From: a phage
Sequence record: PZ445430.1
DNA length: 64,000 nt
Direction: 5' to 3' (one strand)
Below the pieces are notes generated by a model. That model worked only from the letters and a program-made list of their open reading frames with translations, was not told where the DNA came from and searched no databases. Positions 17,217 through 47,644 of this stretch are shown here, one piece after another (positions within the stretch are counted from its first letter, which is position 1; every line of letters begins with the position of its first letter). The position numbers were made by a program, and so were the translations under genes.

Positions 17217-19091
17217 TTATTTAGCGCGAATGTCCTGATGTTTCACTCGACCCATAACCTCATGTTGTTTACCTGGGTTAAATGGACGAGCACCTGGATT
17301 TCCGAGATATCCACAAACTCGACGAGTTACCTCAAGAGTCTCAGGATCATGGTTGCCACAAATTGGGCATTTGAAACCATCCTCAGAAGCTATAGTTTCA
17401 CCCAAGAACCCACATTCCCCACAAGAGTCTACTGGAGTATTAATACCAAAGTAATGAACTTTACTTGCGGCATAGTTAATAACCCATTCCAGTGCATCTG
17501 GGAATCGTTTCATATCCGGCAATTCCACATAGGAAATGCATCCACCAGAAGCAATTGGAGTAAAGTTAGACTCATAATCGAACTTCACGTTTGGAGCAAC
17601 CTTACGTTCTACATCAAGGTGATGGGAATTAGTGTAATATCCTTTAGCCAGAATATCTTCATGCTCTGGAAAATACTCACGGTCTAGGCGACAGAAGCGA
17701 TCACATAGAGATTCAGATGGTGTAGCATATAGACTATACCCTAATTGAGTCTCTTCCTTCTTCTGATCAGCACGATCACGCATGTATTGTAGCACACGTT
17801 GAACGAACTTGACACAAGACTCAGACATTGTATCTACATCTTTACCAAACATGAACTGCAACATTTCGTGGCAGCCTATATATCCTAGAGATACAGAAGC
17901 ACGCTTGTAGAAATGATCAAACACATACTCATCTGGCCCCAGACGTAATCCAAAGGCTCCTGACATATAGAGGATGGGCGCAGCTTTAGCTTGGATGTAT
18001 TTTAAGCGATCAACCCTCCACTCCAATGCTTTTAACGCGGTATCCACACGCAGCTCAAGTAGATCGAAGAATAGATCAATATTTCCTTCCGCTTCGATAG
18101 CGATTCGAGGAAGGTTTACGGAAACAACGCCTAAGTTGTTACGACCAGAAGTTTCACCATCTTCCGCAGCAGCCAGGAATGAACGACAGCCCATAGAGAC
18201 TTTGTAGTCTCCCGTAACTTCTACAACCTTATCATAACTGATGTAGTCAGGATACATACGTTCAGCAGTACATTTCATAGCTAACTTCTTGATATCATAG
18301 TTAACATCACCAGGTTTCATGTTTACGCCATCACGCAAAACAAATACCAGTTTAGGGAAGATAGCTGTACGTTTATTGATACCCAAACCATCCATACGCA
18401 CTTCTAGGATTGCTTTCTGTACAAGACGTGCTTCCCAAGAAGTTCCTAGACCAAACCCAAAGGTAATAAACGGACTTTGACCATTAGAGTTGAACATCGT
18501 ATTGATTTCATACTCCAGGCCCTGACAGGCATCGTAAACTTCTTTCTCAGTCATTTCCGTAGCCATTACAGATGCTTTAGCTTCATCCTTAGTCCAACGC
18601 TTTGCAAACGCATGATTCTTATCATAAGACTTACGAACATAAGGAGCCAATACTTCATCTAATCGGTCTACAGAAGTACCCCCATATTGATGTGAACTAA
18701 CCTGAGTGATAATCTGAGCTGTGATAGCAGCCGCAGTAGTAATAGAGTTTGGTGTACTGATTTCAGCATTACCAACCTTCATACCATTCTTCAACATATC
18801 TTCCAAAGCAACCAGGCAACAGTTAGTCATACCTAACGCAGCGTAATCAGCATCATGGAAGTGAATATCACCAATCATGTGAGCATTTCGAATCTGGATT
18901 GGCATTTCTTCCAGAATCAGATATTTACTCAATTCCCCTGCAAGCATATCCCTTTGTGTAGGGAAACGTTCTGAGGGCTTATTGGCATTATTAAACAGCA
19001 GCTCTTCATCTGCTGAACCTTCGATAATTTCTTTGCAGTTTCGAATCAAGGACTGCATTCCTTTATACTTTAGTTCTTCATTGTGATTCAT
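17217..19091 (-). CDS. nrdD: anaerobic ribonucleoside-triphosphate reductase (class III)
   Basis: 624 aa; C-terminal zinc ribbon CGECG...CPICG followed by glycyl-radical motif RVCGYLG. Confidence 0.85.
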   Translation of the reverse strand: MNHNEELKYKGMQSLIRNCKEIIEGSADEELLFNNANKPSERFPTQRDMLAGELSKYLILEEMPIQIRNAHMIGDIHFHDADYAALGMTNCCLVALEDMLKNGMKVGNAEISTPNSITTAAAITAQIITQVSSHQYGGTSVDRLDEVLAPYVRKSYDKNHAFAKRWTKDEAKASVMATEMTEKEVYDACQGLEYEINTMFNSNGQSPFITFGFGLGTSWEARLVQKAILEVRMDGLGINKRTAIFPKLVFVLRDGVNMKPGDVNYDIKKLAMKCTAERMYPDYISYDKVVEVTGDYKVSMGCRSFLAAAEDGETSGRNNLGVVSVNLPRIAIEAEGNIDLFFDLLELRVDTALKALEWRVDRLKYIQAKAAPILYMSGAFGLRLGPDEYVFDHFYKRASVSLGYIGCHEMLQFMFGKDVDTMSESCVKFVQRVLQYMRDRADQKKEETQLGYSLYATPSESLCDRFCRLDREYFPEHEDILAKGYYTNSHHLDVERKVAPNVKFDYESNFTPIASGGCISYVELPDMKRFPDALEWVINYAASKVHYFGINTPVDSCGECGFLGETIASEDGFKCPICGNHDPETLEVTRRVCGYLGNPGARPFNPGKQHEVMGRVKHQDIRAK

Positions 19092-19130
19092 TATACCCTC
19101 CTTCTCTAACTAAGACTACTATTATAACTC

Positions 19131-19160
19131 ATTCGAAGGCGGATGTCAACAATATTTTAC
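19131..19160 (-). promoter_or_regulatory. sigma70-type promoter for nrdD (minus strand)
   Basis: Minus strand reads TTGACA, 18 bp, TATAAT, about 40 nt upstream of the nrdD start. Confidence 0.55.
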
Positions 19161-25992: not shown

Positions 25993-26571
25993 ATGACAGC
26001 CATAGTAGCATTTAAATATAAAGATAAAGTATACTTAGCTGGTGATCGTATGGGTTCTAATGGCTATACGAAACTGCTGGTTAAAAATCCGAAAGTATTC
26101 AAAATCTCTGATGATTTGTACTTCGGATACACTAGTTCCTTCTACATGGGACAATTACTAGAGCATAGCTTTACTGTACCACCACGTTTAGCAGATATTT
26201 CCGATGATAAATATTTATATACGGAAATAGTACCTAAATTACGTGATATGTTTAACCAGAAAGATTTTGGCGAAAAGAAAAATGAAAAATATGCTGAACC
26301 TAATCTGGGACAATTTATTATGCTCTACAAAGGAAGAATCTTTATTTTCCAATCTAATGCTTCTATTCTAGAAGTTGAATATGCCGGTGTAGGCTGTGGA
26401 GGAGAAGATGTACTTTCCAGTATTCGTACAGGTTTAGCTATTGCGGATTGTCGAGCCACAGATTTAGATGTAGATGATATATTTGAAATCATTGATCTGG
26501 CTTTTACGCATTGTGCAGATTATATGTGTGGTGTATCTTCTCAACATGATGTATTAGTAATTGGAGAATAA
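25993..26571 (+). CDS. Ntn-hydrolase, HslV/proteasome beta-like protein
   Basis: 192 aa; N-terminal MTAIVAF...VYLAGDRMGSNG parallels HslV TTIV...AGDGQ with Thr2 as candidate nucleophile. Confidence 0.45.
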   Translation: MTAIVAFKYKDKVYLAGDRMGSNGYTKLLVKNPKVFKISDDLYFGYTSSFYMGQLLEHSFTVPPRLADISDDKYLYTEIVPKLRDMFNQKDFGEKKNEKYAEPNLGQFIMLYKGRIFIFQSNASILEVEYAGVGCGGEDVLSSIRTGLAIADCRATDLDVDDIFEIIDLAFTHCADYMCGVSSQHDVLVIGE

Positions 26572-26573
26572 AT

Positions 26574-26843
26574 ATGTCTATTCTTTTATCTGCTTTAGAA
26601 GCAAAACAAAATACTATTGCTAGCATTAAAAAGGAAGTAATTGACCTAGAATCACTTATTGCCATAGAGATTGACAAAGCTATCAAAGATAAAGAATTTA
26701 ACTGTCACATCCAGGGATTAACTGAATACTCAGAAAACGCTAGAAATAGCGTCATGCAAAAACTTAGCAAACTAGGTTATGTTGTAGAAGCTAAGTATGA
26801 ACAGCGTGAAGGTTTTTGGCTTGAAATTGATTGGAGCAAATAA
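26574..26843 (+). CDS. hypothetical protein
   Basis: 89 aa. Confidence 0.45.
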   Translation: MSILLSALEAKQNTIASIKKEVIDLESLIAIEIDKAIKDKEFNCHIQGLTEYSENARNSVMQKLSKLGYVVEAKYEQREGFWLEIDWSK

Positions 26844-27319
26844 TGTCGGTTTTCCACATATATACAGATGGTGCATGTAAAGGCAATCCTGGTTTAGGTG
26901 CGTGGGGATTCGTTGTCTATAATGATAATGATGATCGTATTGGCTCTAAATCTGGCTTCAGCCCTAAAACTACTAATAACGAAATGGAACTTACTGCAAT
27001 TGTAGAAGTTCTTCGTTGGTCTACTAAGAAAGATAATCGTCCAGTAATTATCTACACTGATTCTGCTTACTGCAAAAATGGTATGGAAAGCTGGATGTGG
27101 TCTTGGCAGAAGAAAGGCTGGAAGAAGGGAGATGGTGAAACTCCTCTTAATCTAGAACTCTGGCAAGAAGCATTTAAACTAACTCAACAGTATATTAACT
27201 TCCATGATACCAATCCAACCTTTGTTAAGGTTAAAGGTCACTCAGGTATTCGTGGTAATGAAGAAGTTGATGCTCTATGCAATACTGTAATTACTGAGCA
27301 AGAACTTGCTGAGATGTAA
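26843..27319 (+). CDS. rnhA: ribonuclease H
   Basis: RNase HI motifs HIYTDGACKGNPG, ELTAIVE, IIYTDSAY, VKGHSGIRGNEEVD. Confidence 0.8.
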   Translation: MSVFHIYTDGACKGNPGLGAWGFVVYNDNDDRIGSKSGFSPKTTNNEMELTAIVEVLRWSTKKDNRPVIIYTDSAYCKNGMESWMWSWQKKGWKKGDGETPLNLELWQEAFKLTQQYINFHDTNPTFVKVKGHSGIRGNEEVDALCNTVITEQELAEM

Positions 27320-27339
27320 TAAATAATTTAAAAATTCAC

Positions 27340-27368
27340 TTGCTTAAAGCCCTCGAATTTAGTATAAT
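27340..27368 (+). promoter_or_regulatory. sigma70-type promoter
   Basis: TTGCTT, 17 bp, TATAAT; flanked by inverted repeat AAAGCCCTC / GAGGGCTTT. Confidence 0.6.
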
Positions 27369-27395
27369 ATTCGTATTGAAAGTGAGGAGGGCTTT

Positions 27396-27674
27396 ATGCG
27401 AATTTACAACTCAAATTCATTAGGATTTAAACCTTTGAGAAAACGCGCACAATCTCCGCGTCAGATCAGAAAGGCAAATATTGGTGAGCCAGAAACTAGG
27501 CTTCCACCACCTCCGGAGCAGCGTCTAGTTTATCTAGATGAAGAATTAGCCGAAAGGGAACGCAAAGCTCAAGAAGAAATTGAGCGTAAGAAACTGTGTA
27601 CTGCTCCTGCATATAACAAGGGTGGTTATCAGTACGTTTCCAGTGAGGAACAAGCTAAGATGATCGGCAGATAA
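27396..27674 (+). CDS. hypothetical protein
   Basis: 92 aa after promoter 27340-27368 and GAGGAGGG RBS. Confidence 0.5.
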   Translation: MRIYNSNSLGFKPLRKRAQSPRQIRKANIGEPETRLPPPPEQRLVYLDEELAERERKAQEEIERKKLCTAPAYNKGGYQYVSSEEQAKMIGR

Positions 27675-27690
27675 TTTTTAAAAAATTCAT

Positions 27691-27719
27691 TTGCTAAACG
27701 CTTCAAAATTTCGTATAAT
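27691..27719 (+). promoter_or_regulatory. sigma70-type promoter
   Basis: TTGCTA, 17 bp, TATAAT with upstream A-tract. Confidence 0.6.
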
Positions 27720-27757
27720 ATATCTCATAAATTGATCAACAAAAAGGAAAACAAATA

Positions 27758-28273
27758 ATGGCTAAGCAGAAAAACGCAAAAACTCAGGCAGCTCCGGCAG
27801 TTAAAACTTTCGCTCAGACCGAAGCCAATCGTAAGGCTCGTCTGGAACGTCATCTGCGTAAGCATCCTACTGATGCTCAGGCTCAGACTGCCCTGAAGTC
27901 TGCGGCTCCGGTTCGCCAGAAGCCGAAGGCCAAGAACTCTACTCGCGCAACTGCTAAGCAGGTTGTGTTCATCAAGGGTGAAGGTCATAAGTCTGTACCG
28001 GTAACTCTGAGCTTTAACGGCGGTGCTGAGATGTTCGCCCGCAACGGTATGGCTCTGAAAGACTACGAAAAAGCAGTCAATCAGAAGCGTAAGCCAATGG
28101 CTGACGTAATGCGTGAATCCCGTGGACAGTTTGGCTCCGTTAAACCGAATATTTTCGGTGTAGAGTATAGCCGTGACAACGTTCGCGCTCTGTGCTACGG
28201 TATCGGTATTAAGTTTACTGGTGCTTCTGATCGTAAATCCGCTAAACCTACTCGTAAGCGTAAAGCGAAGTAA
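27758..28273 (+). CDS. hypothetical basic protein
   Basis: 171 aa, Lys/Arg/Ala-rich, GC-rich codon usage; after promoter 27691-27719. Confidence 0.55.
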   Translation: MAKQKNAKTQAAPAVKTFAQTEANRKARLERHLRKHPTDAQAQTALKSAAPVRQKPKAKNSTRATAKQVVFIKGEGHKSVPVTLSFNGGAEMFARNGMALKDYEKAVNQKRKPMADVMRESRGQFGSVKPNIFGVEYSRDNVRALCYGIGIKFTGASDRKSAKPTRKRKAK

Positions 28274-28279
28274 TGATTG

Positions 28280-28305
28280 ATGGGGCGAAAGCCCCATATA
28301 CTAAC
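28280..28305 (+). terminator. hairpin, possible terminator
   Basis: ATGGGGC-GAAA-GCCCCAT (GNRA loop); weak U-tract. Confidence 0.4.
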
Positions 28306-28334
28306 TCTTTCTCTGACTAATTAAGGATATTTTT

Positions 28335-28550
28335 ATGTTCTCTAAGAAACCACGTTCCGTTACTGAAATCGTTGCTTCCTTTACCACTATTACTGATGAA
28401 CTTCAAGCTCGTATTGAAGCTGACCAGAAAACTGCTGCTGATATTCAGAAACAGCAGGAAGAACTCGCTCTGAAACTGGCTGAAACCAATAAGAGTGAAA
28501 AATCTGCTCAAACTATTAAGGAAAATATCCTTAAACTGCTGGGCAAGTAA
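28335..28550 (+). CDS. small hypothetical protein
   Basis: 71 aa, coiled-coil-like. Confidence 0.45.
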   Translation: MFSKKPRSVTEIVASFTTITDELQARIEADQKTAADIQKQQEELALKLAETNKSEKSAQTIKENILKLLGK

Positions 28551-28558
28551 TTTAAATC

Positions 28559-28584
28559 AGGGGGCGAAAGCCCCTCTTATTTGG
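28559..28584 (+). terminator. hairpin, possible terminator
   Basis: GGGGGC-GAAA-GCCCCT then CTTATTTGG. Confidence 0.45.
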
Positions 28585-28591
28585 AGAAACT

Positions 28592-28804
28592 ATGCGTAAC
28601 TTCGTTGCAAAGAATGATTTTAACCGTGCTAGCACTCACAAGTCTGCTAGAGACTACACTCGTCTTTCTAAACATGAGCTTCTAGAAGAAATCATGGAAG
28701 AAAACTGGGATGTTAGTGAAAATGGAACAGACCTGTTTGAAGAAGAGGAAGTTCCTCTGAAAGACCCCAAACAGTGGGAGTCTATTAAAGAGACAGCTCT
28801 TTAA
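28592..28804 (+). CDS. small hypothetical acidic protein
   Basis: 70 aa. Confidence 0.45.
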   Translation: MRNFVAKNDFNRASTHKSARDYTRLSKHELLEEIMEENWDVSENGTDLFEEEEVPLKDPKQWESIKETAL

Positions 28805-28834
28805 TAGTTTTCTACAACAATAAAGGACATAATT

Positions 28835-29536
28835 ATGAAATTCAAGCCCTTTGGTATGCTGGACATTGAATCTCTAGGTACTCCAGGAAATTGCGGTACT
28901 ACTCATATTGCAATGCCTTCTTTCGCTTTTGTAGCGATGCACGGAATTGATAAAGATCCTGATCTGGTATTCGTTACTCTAGACGTTCAAGATCAGCTTA
29001 ATGCGGGTGCTAAGGTAACTGCCTCTACTATTGCATTCTGGATGGATCAAGCTAAAAACAGTCCATCTGCGCTCCATATTATGGAGGCTCTAAATGGTCG
29101 TAATCCTAAGCTGATTGCCTTCCGTGATGGTAAGCATCACTGCACTAATGACGTAGGCTCTAATTATGCTGCCTTCTCTATGGCTCAGAACATTATGGAA
29201 TTGTCTCTAGGAGATAATGCTCTGTATTACGGCAATGGCCCAGAGTTTGATATGACAATCTACTCTGCAAATACGTTCCATGCCGGAACCCATGAAGAAA
29301 TAGTTCCGTGGAAATTCTGGAACTTAGGTAACGTTCGATCTTTCCGTAATCAGTGGATGCAAGCTGGTTATAGCTATAAAGATCTAGAAGCCGAAGGTGC
29401 TAGCTGGGCAAAAGCTAAAATGGAAAAGATGGACACCATTCGTTATGGAATCTATCCTGTGAAGCATGATCCAGCATTCGATGCTTTAGTTGAAAGTTAT
29501 TGTGTAGCCGTCATGATCGAAAAAATCAAAATTTGA
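28835..29536 (+). CDS. putative DEDDh-type 3'-5' exonuclease
   Basis: 233 aa; Exo I-like MLDIESLGT and C-terminal H-x4-D (VKHDPAFD). Confidence 0.45.
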   Translation: MKFKPFGMLDIESLGTPGNCGTTHIAMPSFAFVAMHGIDKDPDLVFVTLDVQDQLNAGAKVTASTIAFWMDQAKNSPSALHIMEALNGRNPKLIAFRDGKHHCTNDVGSNYAAFSMAQNIMELSLGDNALYYGNGPEFDMTIYSANTFHAGTHEEIVPWKFWNLGNVRSFRNQWMQAGYSYKDLEAEGASWAKAKMEKMDTIRYGIYPVKHDPAFDALVESYCVAVMIEKIKI

Positions 29537-30482: not shown

Positions 30483-30862
30483 TAATTTAAAAGACTAGTA
30501 AATCGGTAGACGAAAGCCCAAGCATCTTACCTCGCAGCAGCGGTTGAAATACGAGGTTAAATAAGACCGCTGACCATACTATAAAGTATAATCTATTGGA
30601 GATTATGTTTATTACACCAGCCTCTTAAGCTGAACTGTAAAAACGGTCGTTGGTAGTACCAACACAACTTCAAAGATCAACGCTCAAGTATGAAAGCTGA
30701 AAAGTTAAAAGAACTCAAACTTCTAACCTTCTAAAGCTAAAAGATGCAAAGTATTCGTTGATGATTCAAACCCTAGATCAAAGGTACATGGCTCATAAGA
30801 TATGGCCTGTGGCGCCTCTAGGCTGTTTATCGGTTCACTAGTCTCTCAATTTAAAAATGTAT

Positions 30863-30891
30863 TTGCTAATTAGTTTAGTTTTCTATATAAT
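30863..30891 (+). promoter_or_regulatory. sigma70-type promoter
   Basis: TTGCTA, 17 bp, TATAAT. Confidence 0.55.
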
Positions 30892-30921
30892 ATATTTTTA
30901 AATTGATGAGACGAGGCTATT

Positions 30922-31239
30922 ATGATTTTTCATATTCTGATTGATGATGTTCGTGACCTGCATGGGATGGATATTATCATTCGAACCCCCGAAGCCGCTA
31001 TTGAGTTTCTGAATACAACCGATACCACCGGACATTTCGTTTATATGGATAATGATCTGGCTGTAGATGGTATGGAAGGTTATCAAATTCTTCGTTTACT
31101 CCTAGAATTTGGACAGAGACCCAAGAAAGTGGTACTAGTAACCTCGAACCCTGTAGCTAAGCAGAACATGCGTAATGATTTGCTTGACGAAGGGTATCAA
31201 GAAAGCCCTAATCGTATTGAGTACGATTGGCCGGAGTAA
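30922..31239 (+). CDS. hypothetical protein
   Basis: 105 aa after promoter 30863-30891. Confidence 0.5.
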   Translation: MIFHILIDDVRDLHGMDIIIRTPEAAIEFLNTTDTTGHFVYMDNDLAVDGMEGYQILRLLLEFGQRPKKVVLVTSNPVAKQNMRNDLLDEGYQESPNRIEYDWPE

Positions 31240-32419: not shown

Positions 32420-33272
32420 ATAAATTAGAGAACAGCGAGCCGATTACGCTGAGTGAGTTTAGTGATTCCTACTAGGATAGCTACTCCACTGAATAGAGTC
32501 GGTGAGTTGGAGACTAGTAAGTACTCTGAGAGAGGCTACGAGCTAACGCTTATTGCTATTGATAGGGAACTGAAAATCTGCGGAAAACTCGGGAGCTGTC
32601 CCGAAATCTCGTAAACTCTTCTCTAGTTTATGTTAGTGGGGTGTCGAACTGACTTATGTGATAACACTGCCGTCCTAGTATAAACGGTAATATCAAACCG
32701 TAACTGGTGGAAGATGCAGGTTCGAATCCTGCGGTCGGAAAGAATCAGATAACTCGGGCTTATACCGGATAAGCATTCGCTGCTGTAGTACATACTATGA
32801 CGGTTCAGGAGGTACGCCTCCTGATCAGTATTAGGTTAGAATCGAAACAGCTAAACCACGAGGAAACCTGACGGCCTCAACCAAACTCGGAACTCGGGAT
32901 CACTGCCTAGTGTGTACCCCGTTTAACCTGAGACTAGGCATCCAGCTTCGCATCGAAAATCGGAGGTGCGATTCTAACAGACCGCGTGAATATGAGAGTG
33001 GGAAACGCTGACATGAGAGATGTCACTAATGGTGCCCAATAGTACAGGTAATTCGCGATAATTCCTGTTGAGCGGCAGCAGTAGGCTGGGAGTCATGACC
33101 TAAGCCTAACCGAGTTCTTCACATACGGAGAACATAACCACAAAGTCACCCTGACTTAAACTGGAAGATATTGTCTGACGGAAGGGCTGCAGAGCTTAAT
33201 CTGAGGGGGCTGACCCTACCTACCGTCGGGTATCTTTAAGAGCTTTTATAAGAGTTCTTAAAAATACCTAAA
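32420..33272 (+). ncRNA. candidate large structured non-coding RNA (about 850 nt, promoter-driven, ORF-free)
   Basis: Promoter 32385-32413; no ORF of 60 aa or more on either strand; GC-richer than flanks; many local hairpins (e.g. GGAGGTACGCCTCC, CGGGAGCTGTCCCG); ends at tRNA-Arg. Confidence 0.35.
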
Positions 33273-42294: not shown

Positions 42295-42557
42295 ATTTAT
42301 ATAAATCGATGAGGAGAAATCCTCATCAAAGTTCACTAAGGTATTAGCTCGACCTAGGACTGGCTGCCAACAAGCACAGTTGCAATTAGACCCCTAATGG
42401 CGGGGGGATACTTTGCAATAAGTTCTAGATTAGTCCACTAGATTCAGCGGCAACTGAATAGTGTATCGGGTTTGTGAAGAGCGGTTATCCTCTACTGGCT
42501 AATGTCTGAGGGTAATACGCACACCGAGCTAATAGCCTTAGTAAACTTAAAGATTTT

Positions 42558-44755: not shown

Positions 44756-44830
44756 TGCTCCTAAAGCATTGCTGGCGATGCAGTTGCCTTGTAAGCATCT
44801 GAACCGGGTTCGATTCCTGGTGGGAGCACC
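44756..44830 (+). tRNA. tRNA-Thr (anticodon TGT)
   Basis: Acceptor GCTCCTA/TGGGAGC, D-arm GCAT...ATGC, anticodon loop CTTGTAA, T-arm CCGGG-TTCGATT-CCTGG, CCA. Confidence 0.7.
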
Positions 44831-44844
44831 AAATTTAAAAATTC

Positions 44845-44874
44845 ATTTGCCTTCTCTCTTATTTCTTGTTATAA
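44845..44874 (+). promoter_or_regulatory. sigma70-type promoter
   Basis: TTGCCT, 18 bp, TATAAT. Confidence 0.5.
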
Positions 44875-44905
44875 TATTTATATAAATTAATGAGAGGGAA
44901 ACCAA

Positions 44906-45199
44906 ATGAAACGTTATCTTTCTGTCGTGTTCCAAACGGGTGGTCAACGCTACACTTACGAATTTCCTGAGTCTTGGAAAATAAAAGAAGGTGATCAAGT
45001 TGTTGTGCTAACACCTCGTGAAGGCTTCAAAGTAGTAACGGTTAAACAAGTATTTCCAAAAGATCACGAACCATCTAAGTCTATTCAGTACAAGATGATT
45101 CACGGTCTGGTACGAAAAGTACCTAGAACAGAAGTCGAAGTAGATAAAACTGGTGAAGCTAAATACCAGTATACCTCTTACTTAGACGAGTTGTTATAA
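44906..45199 (+). CDS. hypothetical protein
   Basis: 97 aa after promoter 44845-44874 and GAGAGGGAAACC RBS. Confidence 0.5.
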   Translation: MKRYLSVVFQTGGQRYTYEFPESWKIKEGDQVVVLTPREGFKVVTVKQVFPKDHEPSKSIQYKMIHGLVRKVPRTEVEVDKTGEAKYQYTSYLDELL

Positions 45200-46288: not shown

Positions 46289-46582
46289 GTGGATCGAGCA
46301 TTAAGACGCCATCACCGGCAACGTGTGAAAAACAATCGCAAAAAGTATTGGACAGTCTTCCCACATGAAGAAAGTCCTAAGCGGTTAGGCATTATCACTA
46401 CCACTCCTTGCATCTGTTCTTGTTGGATGTGTGGGAATCCTCGCAAATACTATAAGAATAGTAAAGCAGGTATGAAAATCTCGGAGATTAAAAAGATGGA
46501 ATCGACTGAACTGATTATCGGATATGGCGAAGGTATTTCAAATGATGAATTTGATGGCTTCGTAGGTTTCGGTGAAGGTTAA
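46289..46582 (+). CDS. hypothetical basic, Cys-containing protein
   Basis: 97 aa; GTG start 8 nt after AGGAG; terminator follows. Confidence 0.45.
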   Translation: MDRALRRHHRQRVKNNRKKYWTVFPHEESPKRLGIITTTPCICSCWMCGNPRKYYKNSKAGMKISEIKKMESTELIIGYGEGISNDEFDGFVGFGEG

Positions 46583-46832: not shown

Positions 46833-46890
46833 TGTTATATTTTGAAGTTCGCCCACATTAAGTTAATTTAAAAGACTTAATGGAGGTAAT

Positions 46891-47286: not shown

Positions 47287-47303
47287 TTTCGTAAATAATT
47301 CAT

Positions 47304-47332
47304 TTGCTAAAACCCTCTTTTCTTGATATAAT
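47304..47332 (+). promoter_or_regulatory. sigma70-type promoter
   Basis: TTGCTA, 17 bp, TATAAT; flanked by inverted repeat AACCCTCT / AGAGGGCTT. Confidence 0.6.
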
Positions 47333-47362
47333 ATTTATATAAATTGATGAGAGGGCTTTGAA

Positions 47363-47644
47363 ATGAAAACTCGCTTAGACTGCGCTGTCCATGTTCTTGA
47401 GCATGATGTTGTTGGGACTTGTATGTCCTATCATGAAGCAGGCAGAATGATTGTTAAACGTATTGCTGATGTTTGTAGTTTGAAAATCACAGAAGATGAA
47501 GCAGACGAACTGCTTGGACAGGCAATAGAGAAAACAGAAATTTTCTTGTGCGATTCTTGTTCTTGGTGGTGTGAAGCTCACGAACATTCTTTCAATGATT
47601 ATGATGTATGCCGTGACTGTAAGGAGGATGATGAAGATGAGTAA
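47363..47644 (+). CDS. hypothetical Cys-rich acidic protein
   Basis: 93 aa; CDSCSWWCEAHEH...CRDC; promoter 47304-47332. Confidence 0.5.
   Translation: MKTRLDCAVHVLEHDVVGTCMSYHEAGRMIVKRIADVCSLKITEDEADELLGQAIEKTEIFLCDSCSWWCEAHEHSFNDYDVCRDCKEDDEDE

What the first reader, a model, noticed from the sequence alone, without database searches (positions are those of the whole stretch)
27340..27400. Inverted repeats spanning promoters could sequester the RBS only in read-through transcripts
At 27346-27392 the sequence AAAGCCCTC lies upstream of the -10 and its complement GAGGGCTTT lies downstream, overlapping the GAGGAGGG ribosome-binding site. The same arrangement recurs at 47310-47355 (AACCCTCT / AGAGGGCTT). 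A transcript from an upstream promoter would contain both arms and could occlude the RBS, while a transcript from the local promoter has only the 3' arm, coupling translation efficiency to promoter choice.
Basis: inference. Interest (0 to 1): 0.45.

Follow-up and report, generated by a model that had tools for sequence, protein, structure and literature searches.

The report
Promoter-spanning hairpins that hide ribosome sites
[quoted passage not shown] RNA that reads through from upstream should therefore fold and hide that site, while RNA started at the local promoter cannot; this trick is already known from phage T4 and IS10 but, as far as I could find, has not been described for T5-like phages.

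Summary
The window is a T5-like phage, 100% identical to Escherichia phage SuperGirl (Epseptimavirus, Demerecviridae). Both inverted repeats exist.

- **Site 1:** a perfect 10-bp repeat, TAAAGCCCTC 27345-27354 / GAGGGCTTTA 27387-96. The 5' arm lies in the spacer of a T5-type early promoter. The 3' arm covers the Shine-Dalgarno (SD) sequence and the A of the ATG.
- **Site 2:** 9 of 10 pairs (one A.C mismatch) plus flanking helices.
a stronger third case at promoter 44847 and a fourth promoter-spanning helix at 30863.

Read-through RNAs fold unusually well (z = -4.0, -2.3, -4.6). RNAs starting at the local promoter do not. The cost of opening the ribosome site rises by 11-18 kcal/mol in the read-through RNAs.

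The arrangement recurs with different arm sequences in Proteus, Providencia, Klebsiella and Vibrio relatives. Five of 69 promoters have at least 9 perfect complementary bases, against 0.28 expected (P about 1e-5). One orthologous promoter shows clear covariation (5 of 18 pairs changed on both sides). Covariation at the window's own sites is weak.

The mechanism matches the T4 e/soc/49/I-TevI hairpins and IS10 fold-back inhibition, so I rate it a new member of a known kind. The translational effect itself is inferred, not shown.

The parts
27340..27368 (+). Site 1 promoter: -35 TTGCTT (27340-45), 17-nt spacer, -10 TATAAT (27363-68), ATATT discriminator. The predicted transcription start is about 27375. 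It is orthologous to the annotated T5 promoter 46337-46411 upstream of T5.090.
   Evidence: The T5 early-promoter ATATT discriminator is described in PMC7472727.
27345..27354 (+). Site 1 5' arm TAAAGCCCTC, an anti-SD-like sequence inside the promoter spacer. It is present only in transcripts started upstream.
27387..27396 (+). Site 1 3' arm GAGGGCTTTA. It overlaps the SD GAGGAGGG (27384-27391) and the A of ATG 27396-27398.
27396..27674 (+). Gene controlled at site 1: 92 aa, unknown function (phrog_4593; T5.090 / bas29_0068).
47299..47318 (+). Site 2 5' arms. UUCAUUU (47299-47305) and UAAA+ACCCUCU (47308-47318) overlap the -35 TTGCTA (47304-47309) and the first part of the spacer.
47350..47367 (+). 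Site 2 3' arms. AGAGGG (SD) CUUUG and AAAUGAA include AUG 47363-47365. C47356 is opposite A47312, the single mismatch.
47363..47644 (+). Gene controlled at site 2: 93 aa, Cys-rich, unknown function (phrog_2855; T5.053 ortholog).
44842..44863 (+). Site 3 (not in the finding) 5' arms. UUCAUUUG (44842-44849) and UUCUCUCUUAUU (44852-44863) overlap the -35 TTGCCT (44847-44852) and the spacer of the T5 'P11' ortholog. The site lies 11 nt after tRNA-Thr (44757-44831).
44889..44910 (+). Site 3 3' arms. AAUGAGAGGGAA (containing the SD) and CAAAUGAA (AUG 44906-44908). The gene 44906-45199 encodes 97 aa of unknown function (phrog_4760, T5.058).
30841..30912 (+). Site 4 (weaker, different anatomy). An AU-rich helix of about 22 bp joins 30841-30863 (the A/T-rich region just upstream of the -35) with 30889-30912 (-10, discriminator and leader). 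It spans promoter 30863 and ends at GAGAC, immediately 5' of the SD of gene 30922-31239.

Best explanation
A subset of sigma-70 early promoters of this T5-like phage is dual-coded. The sequence just after the -35 box (and sometimes the -35 box itself) is the reverse complement of the SD and start-codon region of the first gene downstream.

RNA polymerase arriving from an upstream promoter transcribes both arms. The read-through RNA then folds into a long-range hairpin that buries the SD and AUG, so 30S ribosomal subunits bind poorly. RNA started at the local promoter begins 3' of the 5' arm, cannot form the hairpin, and is translated.

The result is that synthesis of these particular small proteins depends on their own promoter and is insulated from the heavy read-through typical of the T5 early region, which has few terminators.

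**Shown here:** the sequences, their position relative to the promoter elements, the predicted folds, enrichment over controls, recurrence in relatives, and covariation in relatives.

**Inferred:** that read-through occurs at a meaningful level, that the hairpin forms in vivo, that it lowers translation, and what the phage gains from it.
For: 1. **Anatomy.** At sites 1-3 the 5' arm lies between the -35 and -10 boxes, and the 3' arm covers the SD and AUG.
2. **Folding.** Read-through RNAs have MFE -25.7, -21.5 and -26.0 kcal/mol with z = -3.95, -2.26 and -4.59 against dinucleotide shuffles. Local-start RNAs have z = -0.33, +1.04 and +0.59.
3. **Ribosome-site opening energy.**

| Site | Local RNA (kcal/mol) | Read-through RNA (kcal/mol) |
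|---|---|---|
| 1 | 5.3 | 16.3 |
| 2 | 5.7 | 18.0 |
| 3 | 6.1 | 23.8 |

4. **Controls.**
   - These three are the top three of 23 promoters and reach or exceed the 99th percentile of chimeras.
   - Among 98 predicted genes, long-range occlusion is a property of promoter-proximal genes (mean 3.7 versus 0.55 kcal/mol; Mann-Whitney p = 4e-5).
5. **Recurrence with different sequences in distant Demerecviridae**:
   - PM135: AAACTCCTTAA / TTAGGGAGTTT and CTCCCATTA / TAATGGGAG.
   - JSF12: TCCTCTTTT / AAAAGAGGA.
   - Klebsiella vB_Kpn24-P2: CATTTGCTAA / TTAGCAAATG.
   - Pooled over five genome segments, 5 of 69 promoters have at least 9 bp, against 0.28 expected (P = 9e-6). The signal is specific to spacer versus ribosome site.
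6. **Covariation in relatives.** At the orthologous promoter of the Toprim/primase-like gene in 8 Proteus/Providencia phages, 91.7% of cells are paired, against 59% or less when the partner is slid. Five of 18 pairs changed on both sides. No shuffle out of 500 reached the observed covariation score.
7. **Covariation at site 2.** The window clade has AAAACCCTCT / AGAGGGCTTT. The T5 clade has AAACCTCTCT / AGAGAGGTTT, a perfect 10 bp, giving a C-G to U-A compensatory pair.
8. **Wobble pairs.** G.U pairs are used on the sense strand (site 3, alignment A2, several singletons), which fits RNA rather than DNA pairing.
9. **Precedent.** The mechanism is experimentally established elsewhere: T4 e, soc, 49, I-TevI (PMC3014915 section 29; PMC2988022 section 12).
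Against: - **No expression data.** I found no transcript-end map for these three promoters, which are predicted or annotated only.
- **Site 1 arms are almost invariant.** Across 33 relatives there are only single changes: about 5 keep pairing (through G.U or a register shift) and 3 break it. There is no compensatory double change. Over sites 1-3, single transitions split roughly evenly between tolerated and disruptive.
- **No extra conservation.** By eye (not counted), the arms look no more conserved than the rest of the promoter.
- **Same temporal class.** The upstream and local promoters are both early, unlike in T4, so the benefit of gating is unclear.
- **Generic pairing.** The 5' arms of sites 2 and 3 are CU-rich anti-SD-like sequences. 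In chimeras they would also pair with other T5 leaders. Part of the complementarity also follows from the family consensus: spacer AAAGC, 'CATTT' before the -35 box, 'AAATG' at start codons.
- **No link to missing terminators.** Hairpin-bearing promoters are not significantly depleted of upstream terminators (2 of 10 versus 17 of 59).
- **Long loops.** With loops of 25-32 nt, ribosome binding during transcription could outcompete folding.
Confidence: 0.55

Rival explanations
1. The promoter-spanning hairpins are RNA processing or stability elements in read-through transcripts. They could be RNase III or RNase E entry sites, or 3'-end-protecting structures. Their role would be to separate the upstream message or tRNA precursor from the downstream cistron, and RBS occlusion would be incidental.
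For: - Site 3 begins 11 nt after tRNA-Thr, where the precursor must be processed.
- Site 4 forms an almost continuous helix of about 22 bp, the size class of RNase III substrates (substrate size is from my own knowledge).
- Sites 1-3 stack an outer helix on an inner AU-rich hairpin, loosely like the T7 early RNase III sites (own knowledge).
Against: - The helices at sites 1-3 are 10-18 bp interrupted by loops, and the inner hairpin is just the generic palindromic T5 -10/discriminator/leader consensus.
- In every independent instance the 3' arm sits on the SD or AUG, not elsewhere in the leader or coding sequence (5 of 69 versus 1 of 69). A pure processing site would not need this.
- No Rfam family matches the sites.
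Confidence: 0.15
2. The complementarity is a chance by-product of the shared T5 promoter/leader consensus. CU-rich spacers, 'AAAGC' after the -35 box and purine-rich GAGAGG leaders would generate it without any selection on pairing.
For: - Only 3-4 of about 25 promoters show the feature.
- The 5' arms of sites 2 and 3 also occlude other promoters' leaders in chimeras.
- Sites 1 and 2 share nearly the same arms, so they are not fully independent.
- Single substitutions are not biased towards keeping pairs.
- 9-bp inverted repeats within 60 nt are expected several times by chance in 64 kb (my estimate).
Against: - Enrichment over the chimera null across five genome segments, P about 1e-5.
- The arm sequences differ between lineages and each matches its own gene's SD.
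- Five pairs covary at the Proteus/Providencia promoter.
- Compensatory changes at site 2 and site 4 between the T5 and window clades.
- Read-through folds have z-scores of -4.0 and -4.6.
Confidence: 0.15
3. The inverted repeat acts at the DNA level, as a symmetric operator for a dimeric phage or host regulator flanking the -10 box and start site, or as a cruciform that modulates promoter activity.
For: The arms flank the core promoter with about 42 bp centre-to-centre at site 1. Covariation alone cannot distinguish DNA symmetry from RNA pairing.
Against: - The arm sequences differ completely among sites and lineages, so there is no common recognition motif.
- Several helices depend on G.U pairs that exist only in sense-strand RNA (site 3; alignment A2 pairs 21-58, 17-62, 11-68).
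- The 3' arm is always the SD/AUG.
- Loops of 25-32 bp make cruciform extrusion unfavourable (own knowledge).
Confidence: 0.05
4. The hairpin is a weak terminator or attenuator that stops read-through polymerases just past the promoter, insulating transcription units rather than translation.
For: The stem is followed by UUU at site 1 and UUU at site 2. The PM135 example is followed by UUUUU.
Against: - The terminator scan does not detect these sites.
- The loops are about 30 nt.
- Site 3 and the JSF12 and Klebsiella examples have no U-tract.
- Termination there would cut off the gene's own coding sequence only for read-through RNA, which would be functionally redundant with RBS occlusion.
Confidence: 0.05

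Closest known systems
Phage T4 translation-initiation-region hairpins spanning late promoters (genes e, soc, 49, I-TevI; also segB, and Aeh1 mobE)
   Same: The SD and/or AUG is sequestered in a helix that forms only on transcripts started upstream. A promoter sits within or next to the 5' arm, so locally started transcripts lack that arm and are translated (PMC3014915 section 29; PMC2988022 section 12; McPheeters et al. 1986, PMC311593, as cited there).
   Different: - In T4 the internal promoter is a late (gp55) promoter and the read-through RNA is early or middle, so the device gives temporal control. Here both promoters are sigma-70 early-type, with the ATATT discriminator.
- Here the 5' arm lies inside the -35/-10 spacer (or overlaps the -35 box), so one sequence serves both promoter geometry and RNA pairing.
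- The genes here are small proteins of unknown function, not lysis or homing-endonuclease genes.
- There is no experimental proof here.
IS10 / IS50 'fold-back inhibition' protecting transposase from external promoters (Davis, Simons & Kleckner 1985; Schulz & Reznikoff 1991; from my own knowledge, not retrievable in the library)
   Same: A sigma-70 promoter whose own transcript starts inside the structure. Transcripts entering from outside contain an upstream segment complementary to the RBS region and are poorly translated. The purpose is insulation from read-through rather than timing.
   Different: This is a phage early region, not a transposable element. Several unrelated genes carry lineage-specific arms. 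The upstream transcription is the phage's own programmed transcription, not accidental.
T7 early-region RNase III processing hairpins (own knowledge)
   Same: Intercistronic stem-loops in long phage early transcripts. Site 4 (about 22 bp) approaches the required length.
   Different: The T7 sites do not span promoters and are not built on the SD sequence. The helices at sites 1-3 are shorter and interrupted.

Membership tests
T4-type promoter-embedded RBS-sequestering hairpin | The SD and/or start codon is base-paired in transcripts initiated upstream. | tested here: met
   The read-through minimum-energy and centroid structures pair the SD and AUG at sites 1-3. Opening energy rises by 11-18 kcal/mol. 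This is prediction only.
T4-type promoter-embedded RBS-sequestering hairpin | A promoter lies inside the structure, so its transcript lacks the 5' arm. | tested here: met
   The 5' arms lie between the -35 and -10 boxes of consensus T5 early promoters. The orthologous T5 sequences are annotated promoters. The transcription starts were not mapped here.
T4-type promoter-embedded RBS-sequestering hairpin | The internal promoter belongs to a later temporal class than the read-through transcripts (late, gp55-dependent). | tested here: not met
   The promoters are sigma-70 -35/-10 early-type with the ATATT discriminator. The upstream promoters (for example 25934) are of the same type.
T4-type promoter-embedded RBS-sequestering hairpin | Translation is demonstrably lower from long transcripts than from short ones. 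| not testable with these tools
   This needs reporter fusions, toeprinting or ribosome profiling.
IS10/IS50 fold-back inhibition | The structure protects a transposase gene at the end of an insertion sequence from outside transcription. | tested here: not met
   The downstream genes are phage ORFs of unknown function (phrog_4593, 2855, 4760). No transposase or IS ends are present.
Intrinsic (rho-independent) terminator | A G+C-rich stem with a short loop, followed directly by a U-tract. | tested here: not met
   Neither site is listed by the terminator scan. The loop is 32 nt at site 1 and 31 nt at site 2, and 3 U follow the stem at these two sites.
RNase III processing site | About two turns (around 20 bp) of largely continuous double-stranded RNA, cleaved by RNase III. 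| tested here: inconclusive
   Sites 1-3 have interrupted helices of 10-18 bp. Site 4 has about 22 bp. Cleavage cannot be tested here.
Any curated Rfam RNA family | A match at or above the family's gathering score. | tested here: not met
   Only tRNA matches were found in the whole window.

The most novel reading that the evidence does not exclude
Across Demerecviridae, the spacer of strong sigma-70 early promoters is repeatedly recruited as an anti-Shine-Dalgarno element. This would be a family-wide 'transcript-origin gate' that makes the first cistron after selected promoters translatable only from its own promoter, even though the read-through and local transcripts belong to the same temporal class. 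The device would be gained, lost and re-tuned by compensatory change at different promoters in different genera. It would mean that promoter spacers, usually treated as sequence-neutral, carry a second, RNA-level code, and that T5 early gene dosage is set by promoter-specific translation rather than by transcript abundance.
Probability: 0.35. Interest if true: 0.6.

Novelty: new member of a known kind. Interest (0 to 1): 0.45.

Why it matters
- **T5 gene control is poorly understood.** How T5 switches transcription between its temporal gene classes is still unknown (PMC7472727). If these hairpins work as proposed, they show that T5-like phages set protein output from a region with few terminators and heavy read-through by gating translation according to where the transcript started.
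- **It adds a new setting for a known device.** It would be a case where the gating promoter is an ordinary sigma-70 early promoter of a phage and where the promoter spacer is dual-coded.
- **Annotation and engineering.** Operon membership would not predict expression of these cistrons.
- **Ready test set.** The covarying Proteus/Providencia promoter and the three sites here form a ready-made natural mutant series for testing.

Tried and rejected
- **Terminator reading: rejected.** The scans do not list the sites, the loops are about 30 nt, and there is no consistent U-tract.
- **General property of all T5 promoters: rejected.** The remaining 19-20 promoters are indistinguishable from chimeras.
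- **Association with missing upstream terminators: not significant** (2 of 10 versus 17 of 59).
- **Shared function of the gated genes: nothing found.** All are unrelated proteins of unknown function, except a Toprim/primase-like protein in Proteus phages.
- **More distant orthologues of the site 1 gene.**
  - A metagenome scan gave 5 more T5-like sequences, which showed only C-to-U or register-shift variants, plus many marine relatives without the promoter.
  - The viral-contig relatives L029-L032 lack the promoter.
  - L033 and L034 have a different promoter with only an 8-bp AT-rich repeat that does not cover the SD.
- **Relatives of the PM135 and JSF12 genes in IMG/VR:** only self hits. 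GenBank phages gave the useful Proteus/Providencia set. JSF12 relatives are 99% or more identical and uninformative.
- **Literature.** I found no description of such hairpins for T5. The IS10 papers are not held in the library.
- **Gene 46891.** Its high score turned out to be a compact hairpin in its leader that shields part of the ribosome site. In T5 it lies entirely downstream of the P10a -10 box, so it does not span the promoter.

Full report
**Identity of the window.** Bases 26000-29000 are 100% identical to Escherichia phage SuperGirl (MZ501105, Epseptimavirus, Demerecviridae) and 80-99% identical to several hundred T5-like phages. The finding lies in the early region. Upstream are nrdA/B, frd, td and RNase H (which ends at 27319). 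Downstream is a 92-aa hypothetical gene, 27396-27674.

A scan for the T5 promoter architecture found about 45 such promoters in the window. That architecture is an A-rich upstream element, TTGCTW, a 17-nt spacer, TATAAT, an ATATT discriminator and the leader 'ATAAATTGATGAGAGG'. In T5 itself, the orthologues of the sequences discussed here are annotated promoters:

| Site | T5 promoter | T5 gene downstream |
|---|---|---|
| 1 | 46337-46411 | T5.090 |
| 2 | 26722-26796 | T5.053 |
| 3 | 'P11', 28597-28671 | T5.058 |

**The observation.**
- Site 1 is a perfect 10-bp inverted repeat, TAAAGCCCTC (27345-27354) with GAGGGCTTTA (27387-27396). The 5' arm lies in the spacer between the -35 box (27340-45) and the -10 box (27363-68). 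The 3' arm overlaps the SD GAGGAGGG and the A of the ATG.
- Site 2 is AAAACCCTCT (47309-47318) with AGAGGGCTTT (47350-47359), 9 of 10 pairs with one A.C mismatch. A flanking helix, UUCAUUU/AAAUGAA, covers the AUG.

**Further sites.** I compared every promoter's [-35 + spacer] with its own leader. A third and stronger case appeared at promoter 44847, 11 nt after tRNA-Thr: UUCAUUUG/CAAAUGAA plus UUCUCUCUUAUU/AAUGAGAGGGAA, which covers both SD and AUG. A fourth promoter-spanning helix of about 22 bp lies at 30841-30863/30889-30912 and ends just 5' of the SD.

**Folding.**

| Site | Read-through MFE (kcal/mol) | Read-through z | Local-start z | Opening energy, local (kcal/mol) | Opening energy, read-through (kcal/mol) |
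|---|---|---|---|---|---|
| 1 | -25.7 | -3.95 | -0.33 | 5.3 | 16.3 |
| 2 | -21.5 | -2.26 | +1.04 | 5.7 | 18.0 |
| 3 | -26.0 | -4.59 | +0.59 | 6.1 | 23.8 |

The long-range helix is present in both the minimum-energy and centroid structures. Opening energy is the free energy needed to unpair ATG-14..ATG+2. The upstream stop codons lie 24-26 nt before the 5' arms, so terminating ribosomes should not prevent folding (read from the sequence; the footprint size is my own knowledge).

**Is it more than chance?**
- In the window, the three sites are the top three of 23 promoters. A null of 506 chimeras (the upstream part of promoter a joined to the downstream part of promoter b) has mean 2.25 and 99th percentile 11.9 kcal/mol. 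The high chimeras all involve the same few 5' arms.
- Among 98 predicted genes, long-range occlusion by upstream sequence is a property of promoter-proximal genes (mean 3.7 versus 0.55 kcal/mol; Mann-Whitney p = 4e-5). The one non-promoter outlier, gene 46891, has a compact hairpin in its leader next to the SD rather than a promoter-spanning one.
- The other roughly 20 promoters do not differ from the null. This is therefore a feature of a subset of T5 promoters, not of all of them.

**Independent lineages.** I fetched 30-40 kb of the early region of four distant Demerecviridae and applied the same procedure. New instances appeared at non-homologous genes, each with arms matching that gene's own SD:

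| Phage | 5' arm / 3' arm | Pairs | Increase in opening energy (kcal/mol) |
|---|---|---|---|
| Proteus PM135 | AAACTCCTTAA / TTAGGGAGTTT | 11 bp | 16.2 |
| Proteus PM135 | CTCCCATTA / TAATGGGAG | 9 bp | 8.8 |
| Vibrio JSF12 | TCCTCTTTT / AAAAGAGGA | 9 bp | 7.4 |
| Klebsiella vB_Kpn24-P2 | CATTTGCTAA / TTAGCAAATG (-35 box with start codon) | 10 bp | 12.3 |

Vibrio D415 had none. Pooling the window and these four segments, 5 of 69 promoters have a perfect complement of at least 9 bp between [-35/spacer] and [ATG-20..+3]. The chimera rate is 0.4%, or 0.28 expected (binomial P = 9e-6). The same spacers against the coding sequence at +6..+29 give 1 of 69. Far-upstream sequence against the ribosome site gives 0 of 69.

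**Covariation.**
- **Site 1.** The arms are nearly invariant in 33 relatives. Variants are single changes. C-to-U or A-to-G changes that keep a G.U pair, or a register shift on the repeated GAGGAGGG, account for about 5. Three break distal pairs. There is no compensatory double change.
- **Site 2.** The window clade (AAAACCCTCT/AGAGGGCTTT) and the T5 clade (AAACCTCTCT/AGAGAGGTTT, a perfect 10 bp) differ by a C-G to U-A compensatory pair and by an A.C to C-G pair. Overall 95.9% of cells are paired and 2 pairs changed on both sides. The signal is modest.
- **Site 3.** Almost invariant.
- **Site 4.** GTCTC/GAGAC in the window corresponds to GTTTC/GAAAC in T5.
- **Relatives.** The clearest evidence comes from the promoter of the Toprim/primase-like gene in six Proteus and two Providencia phages. 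It keeps an 11-12-bp spacer/SD helix through three different arm pairs. In the alignment, 91.7% of cells are paired, against 59% or less when the 3' partner is slid by 1-3 columns. Five of 18 pairs changed on both sides (for example AU/GC/UA at columns 16-63). No shuffle out of 500 reached the observed covariation score.
- The T5 and window orthologue of that promoter (P15a; window 34743) lacks the helix (3.2 kcal/mol). The device is therefore gained and lost at different promoters in different genera.
- Several helices rely on G.U pairs on the sense strand, which favours RNA pairing over DNA symmetry.

**How the arms may arise.** The family consensus spacer begins AAA(N)GCTTA, and many promoters are preceded by 'CATTT'. 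A leader that acquires GCTTT after its SD, or that has AAATG at its start codon, becomes complementary to these conserved promoter bases. This may explain why sites 1 and 2 share 'GGGCTTT' (inference). It also means that part of the complementarity comes cheaply, and that sites 1 and 2 are not fully independent.

**Mechanism and comparison with known systems.** Read-through RNA contains both arms and hides the SD and AUG, while the local transcript has only the 3' arm.
- This is the established mechanism of T4 genes e, soc, 49 and I-TevI. It is also predicted for T4 segB and reported for Aeh1 mobE. In all of these a promoter sits in the 5' part of an inhibitory ribosome-site hairpin (PMC3014915 section 29; PMC2988022 section 12).
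- It is also the mechanism of IS10/IS50 fold-back inhibition (my own knowledge).
- The differences from T4 are two. The gating promoter is a sigma-70 early promoter of the same temporal class as the upstream promoters, so the defining 'late promoter' feature is not met. And the 5' arm is embedded in the -35/-10 spacer.
- Functionally it looks closer to the IS10 logic, which is insulation from outside transcription. It is not an insertion sequence, though.
- I found no description of this in the T5 literature I could search, and no Rfam family matches.

**Rivals.**
- **Processing or stability element.** This is plausible for site 3 (next to a tRNA) and for site 4 (about 22 bp). It does not explain why the 3' arm is always the SD or AUG.
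- **Chance or consensus by-product.** This is weakened by the enrichment, the lineage-specific arms and the covariation.
- **DNA operator or cruciform.** There is no common motif, the helices depend on G.U pairs, and the loops are long.
- **Terminator.** This is not supported by the scans.

**Limits.** Everything here is computational.
- The transcription starts are inferred from the consensus, 7 nt after the -10 box, as for PN25 (my own knowledge).
- The extent of read-through, the kinetics of folding with 25-32-nt loops, and the benefit to the phage are all unknown.
- The gated genes are unrelated small proteins of unknown function.
- Hairpin-bearing promoters are not significantly depleted of upstream terminators.

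Noticed in passing
It pairs UUCAUUUG with CAAAUGAA and UUCUCUCUUAUU with AAUGAGAGGGAA. The opening energy rises by 17.8 kcal/mol in read-through RNA, and the fold has z = -4.6.
   Followed up: yes
window 30841-30863 with 30889-30912: An AU-rich helix of about 22 bp pairs the A/T-rich region just upstream of the -35 of promoter 30863 with its own -10, discriminator and leader. It ends at GAGAC just before the SD of gene 30922. T5 keeps it, with a GTCTC/GAGAC to GTTTC/GAAAC compensatory change. It is long enough to be a possible RNase III substrate.
   Followed up: partly
window 30922-31239: The 105-aa protein after promoter 30863 matches Pfam PF20274 (cREC_REC, cyclic-phosphate processing receiver domain; E = 1e-15). 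It is annotated only as hypothetical in the phage record.
   Followed up: no
window 19091-19149 (- strand), nrdD promoter: The spacer TCCGCCTTC is complementary (8 of 9, with one G.A mismatch) to the SD GAAGGAGGG. The T5 orthologue has a different spacer (CTGCCCTTG) that pairs with GAGGGTA in another register. This is a possible weaker fifth case (7.6 kcal/mol).
   Followed up: partly
window 46856-46884: A compact hairpin in the leader, CATTAAGTT/GACTTAATG with a 9-nt loop, abuts the SD GGAGG of gene 46891 (T5.054 orthologue, downstream of T5 promoter P10a). In T5 the hairpin lies entirely downstream of the P10a -10 box, so it should be present in the local transcript too. It shields part of the RBS rather than being promoter-gated.
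   Followed up: partly
window 42306-42329: A local hairpin, GATGAGGA-gaaa-TCCTCATC, lies in the non-coding leader after promoter 42266 (T5 P13b orthologue) ahead of tRNA-Ala. It sequesters the SD-like leader sequence where there is no gene to translate.
   Followed up: no
window 32669-32740: Rfam gives a borderline tRNA match (29.3 bits; gathering score 29) that ARAGORN did not call. It may be a degenerate or tRNA-like RNA, as annotated in the T5 tRNA region.
   Followed up: no
window 27396-27674; loci L108-L182: The C-terminal motif EIERKKLCTAPAYNKGxYxY..EEQAKxIGR of the 92-aa protein (phrog_4593) is conserved in many marine and freshwater metagenome contigs far outside the T5-like phages. 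This suggests a widespread small phage protein domain of unknown function.
   Followed up: no
L090 (Klebsiella phage vB_Kpn24-P2) 30005 and 32740: Two Klebsiella-phage promoters share the spacer GCTCTTAT and the leader AATGAGAG, the same arm pair as the core of window site 3. The arm pair may therefore be older than the Markadamsvirinae or may have spread by promoter-cassette recombination.
   Followed up: no
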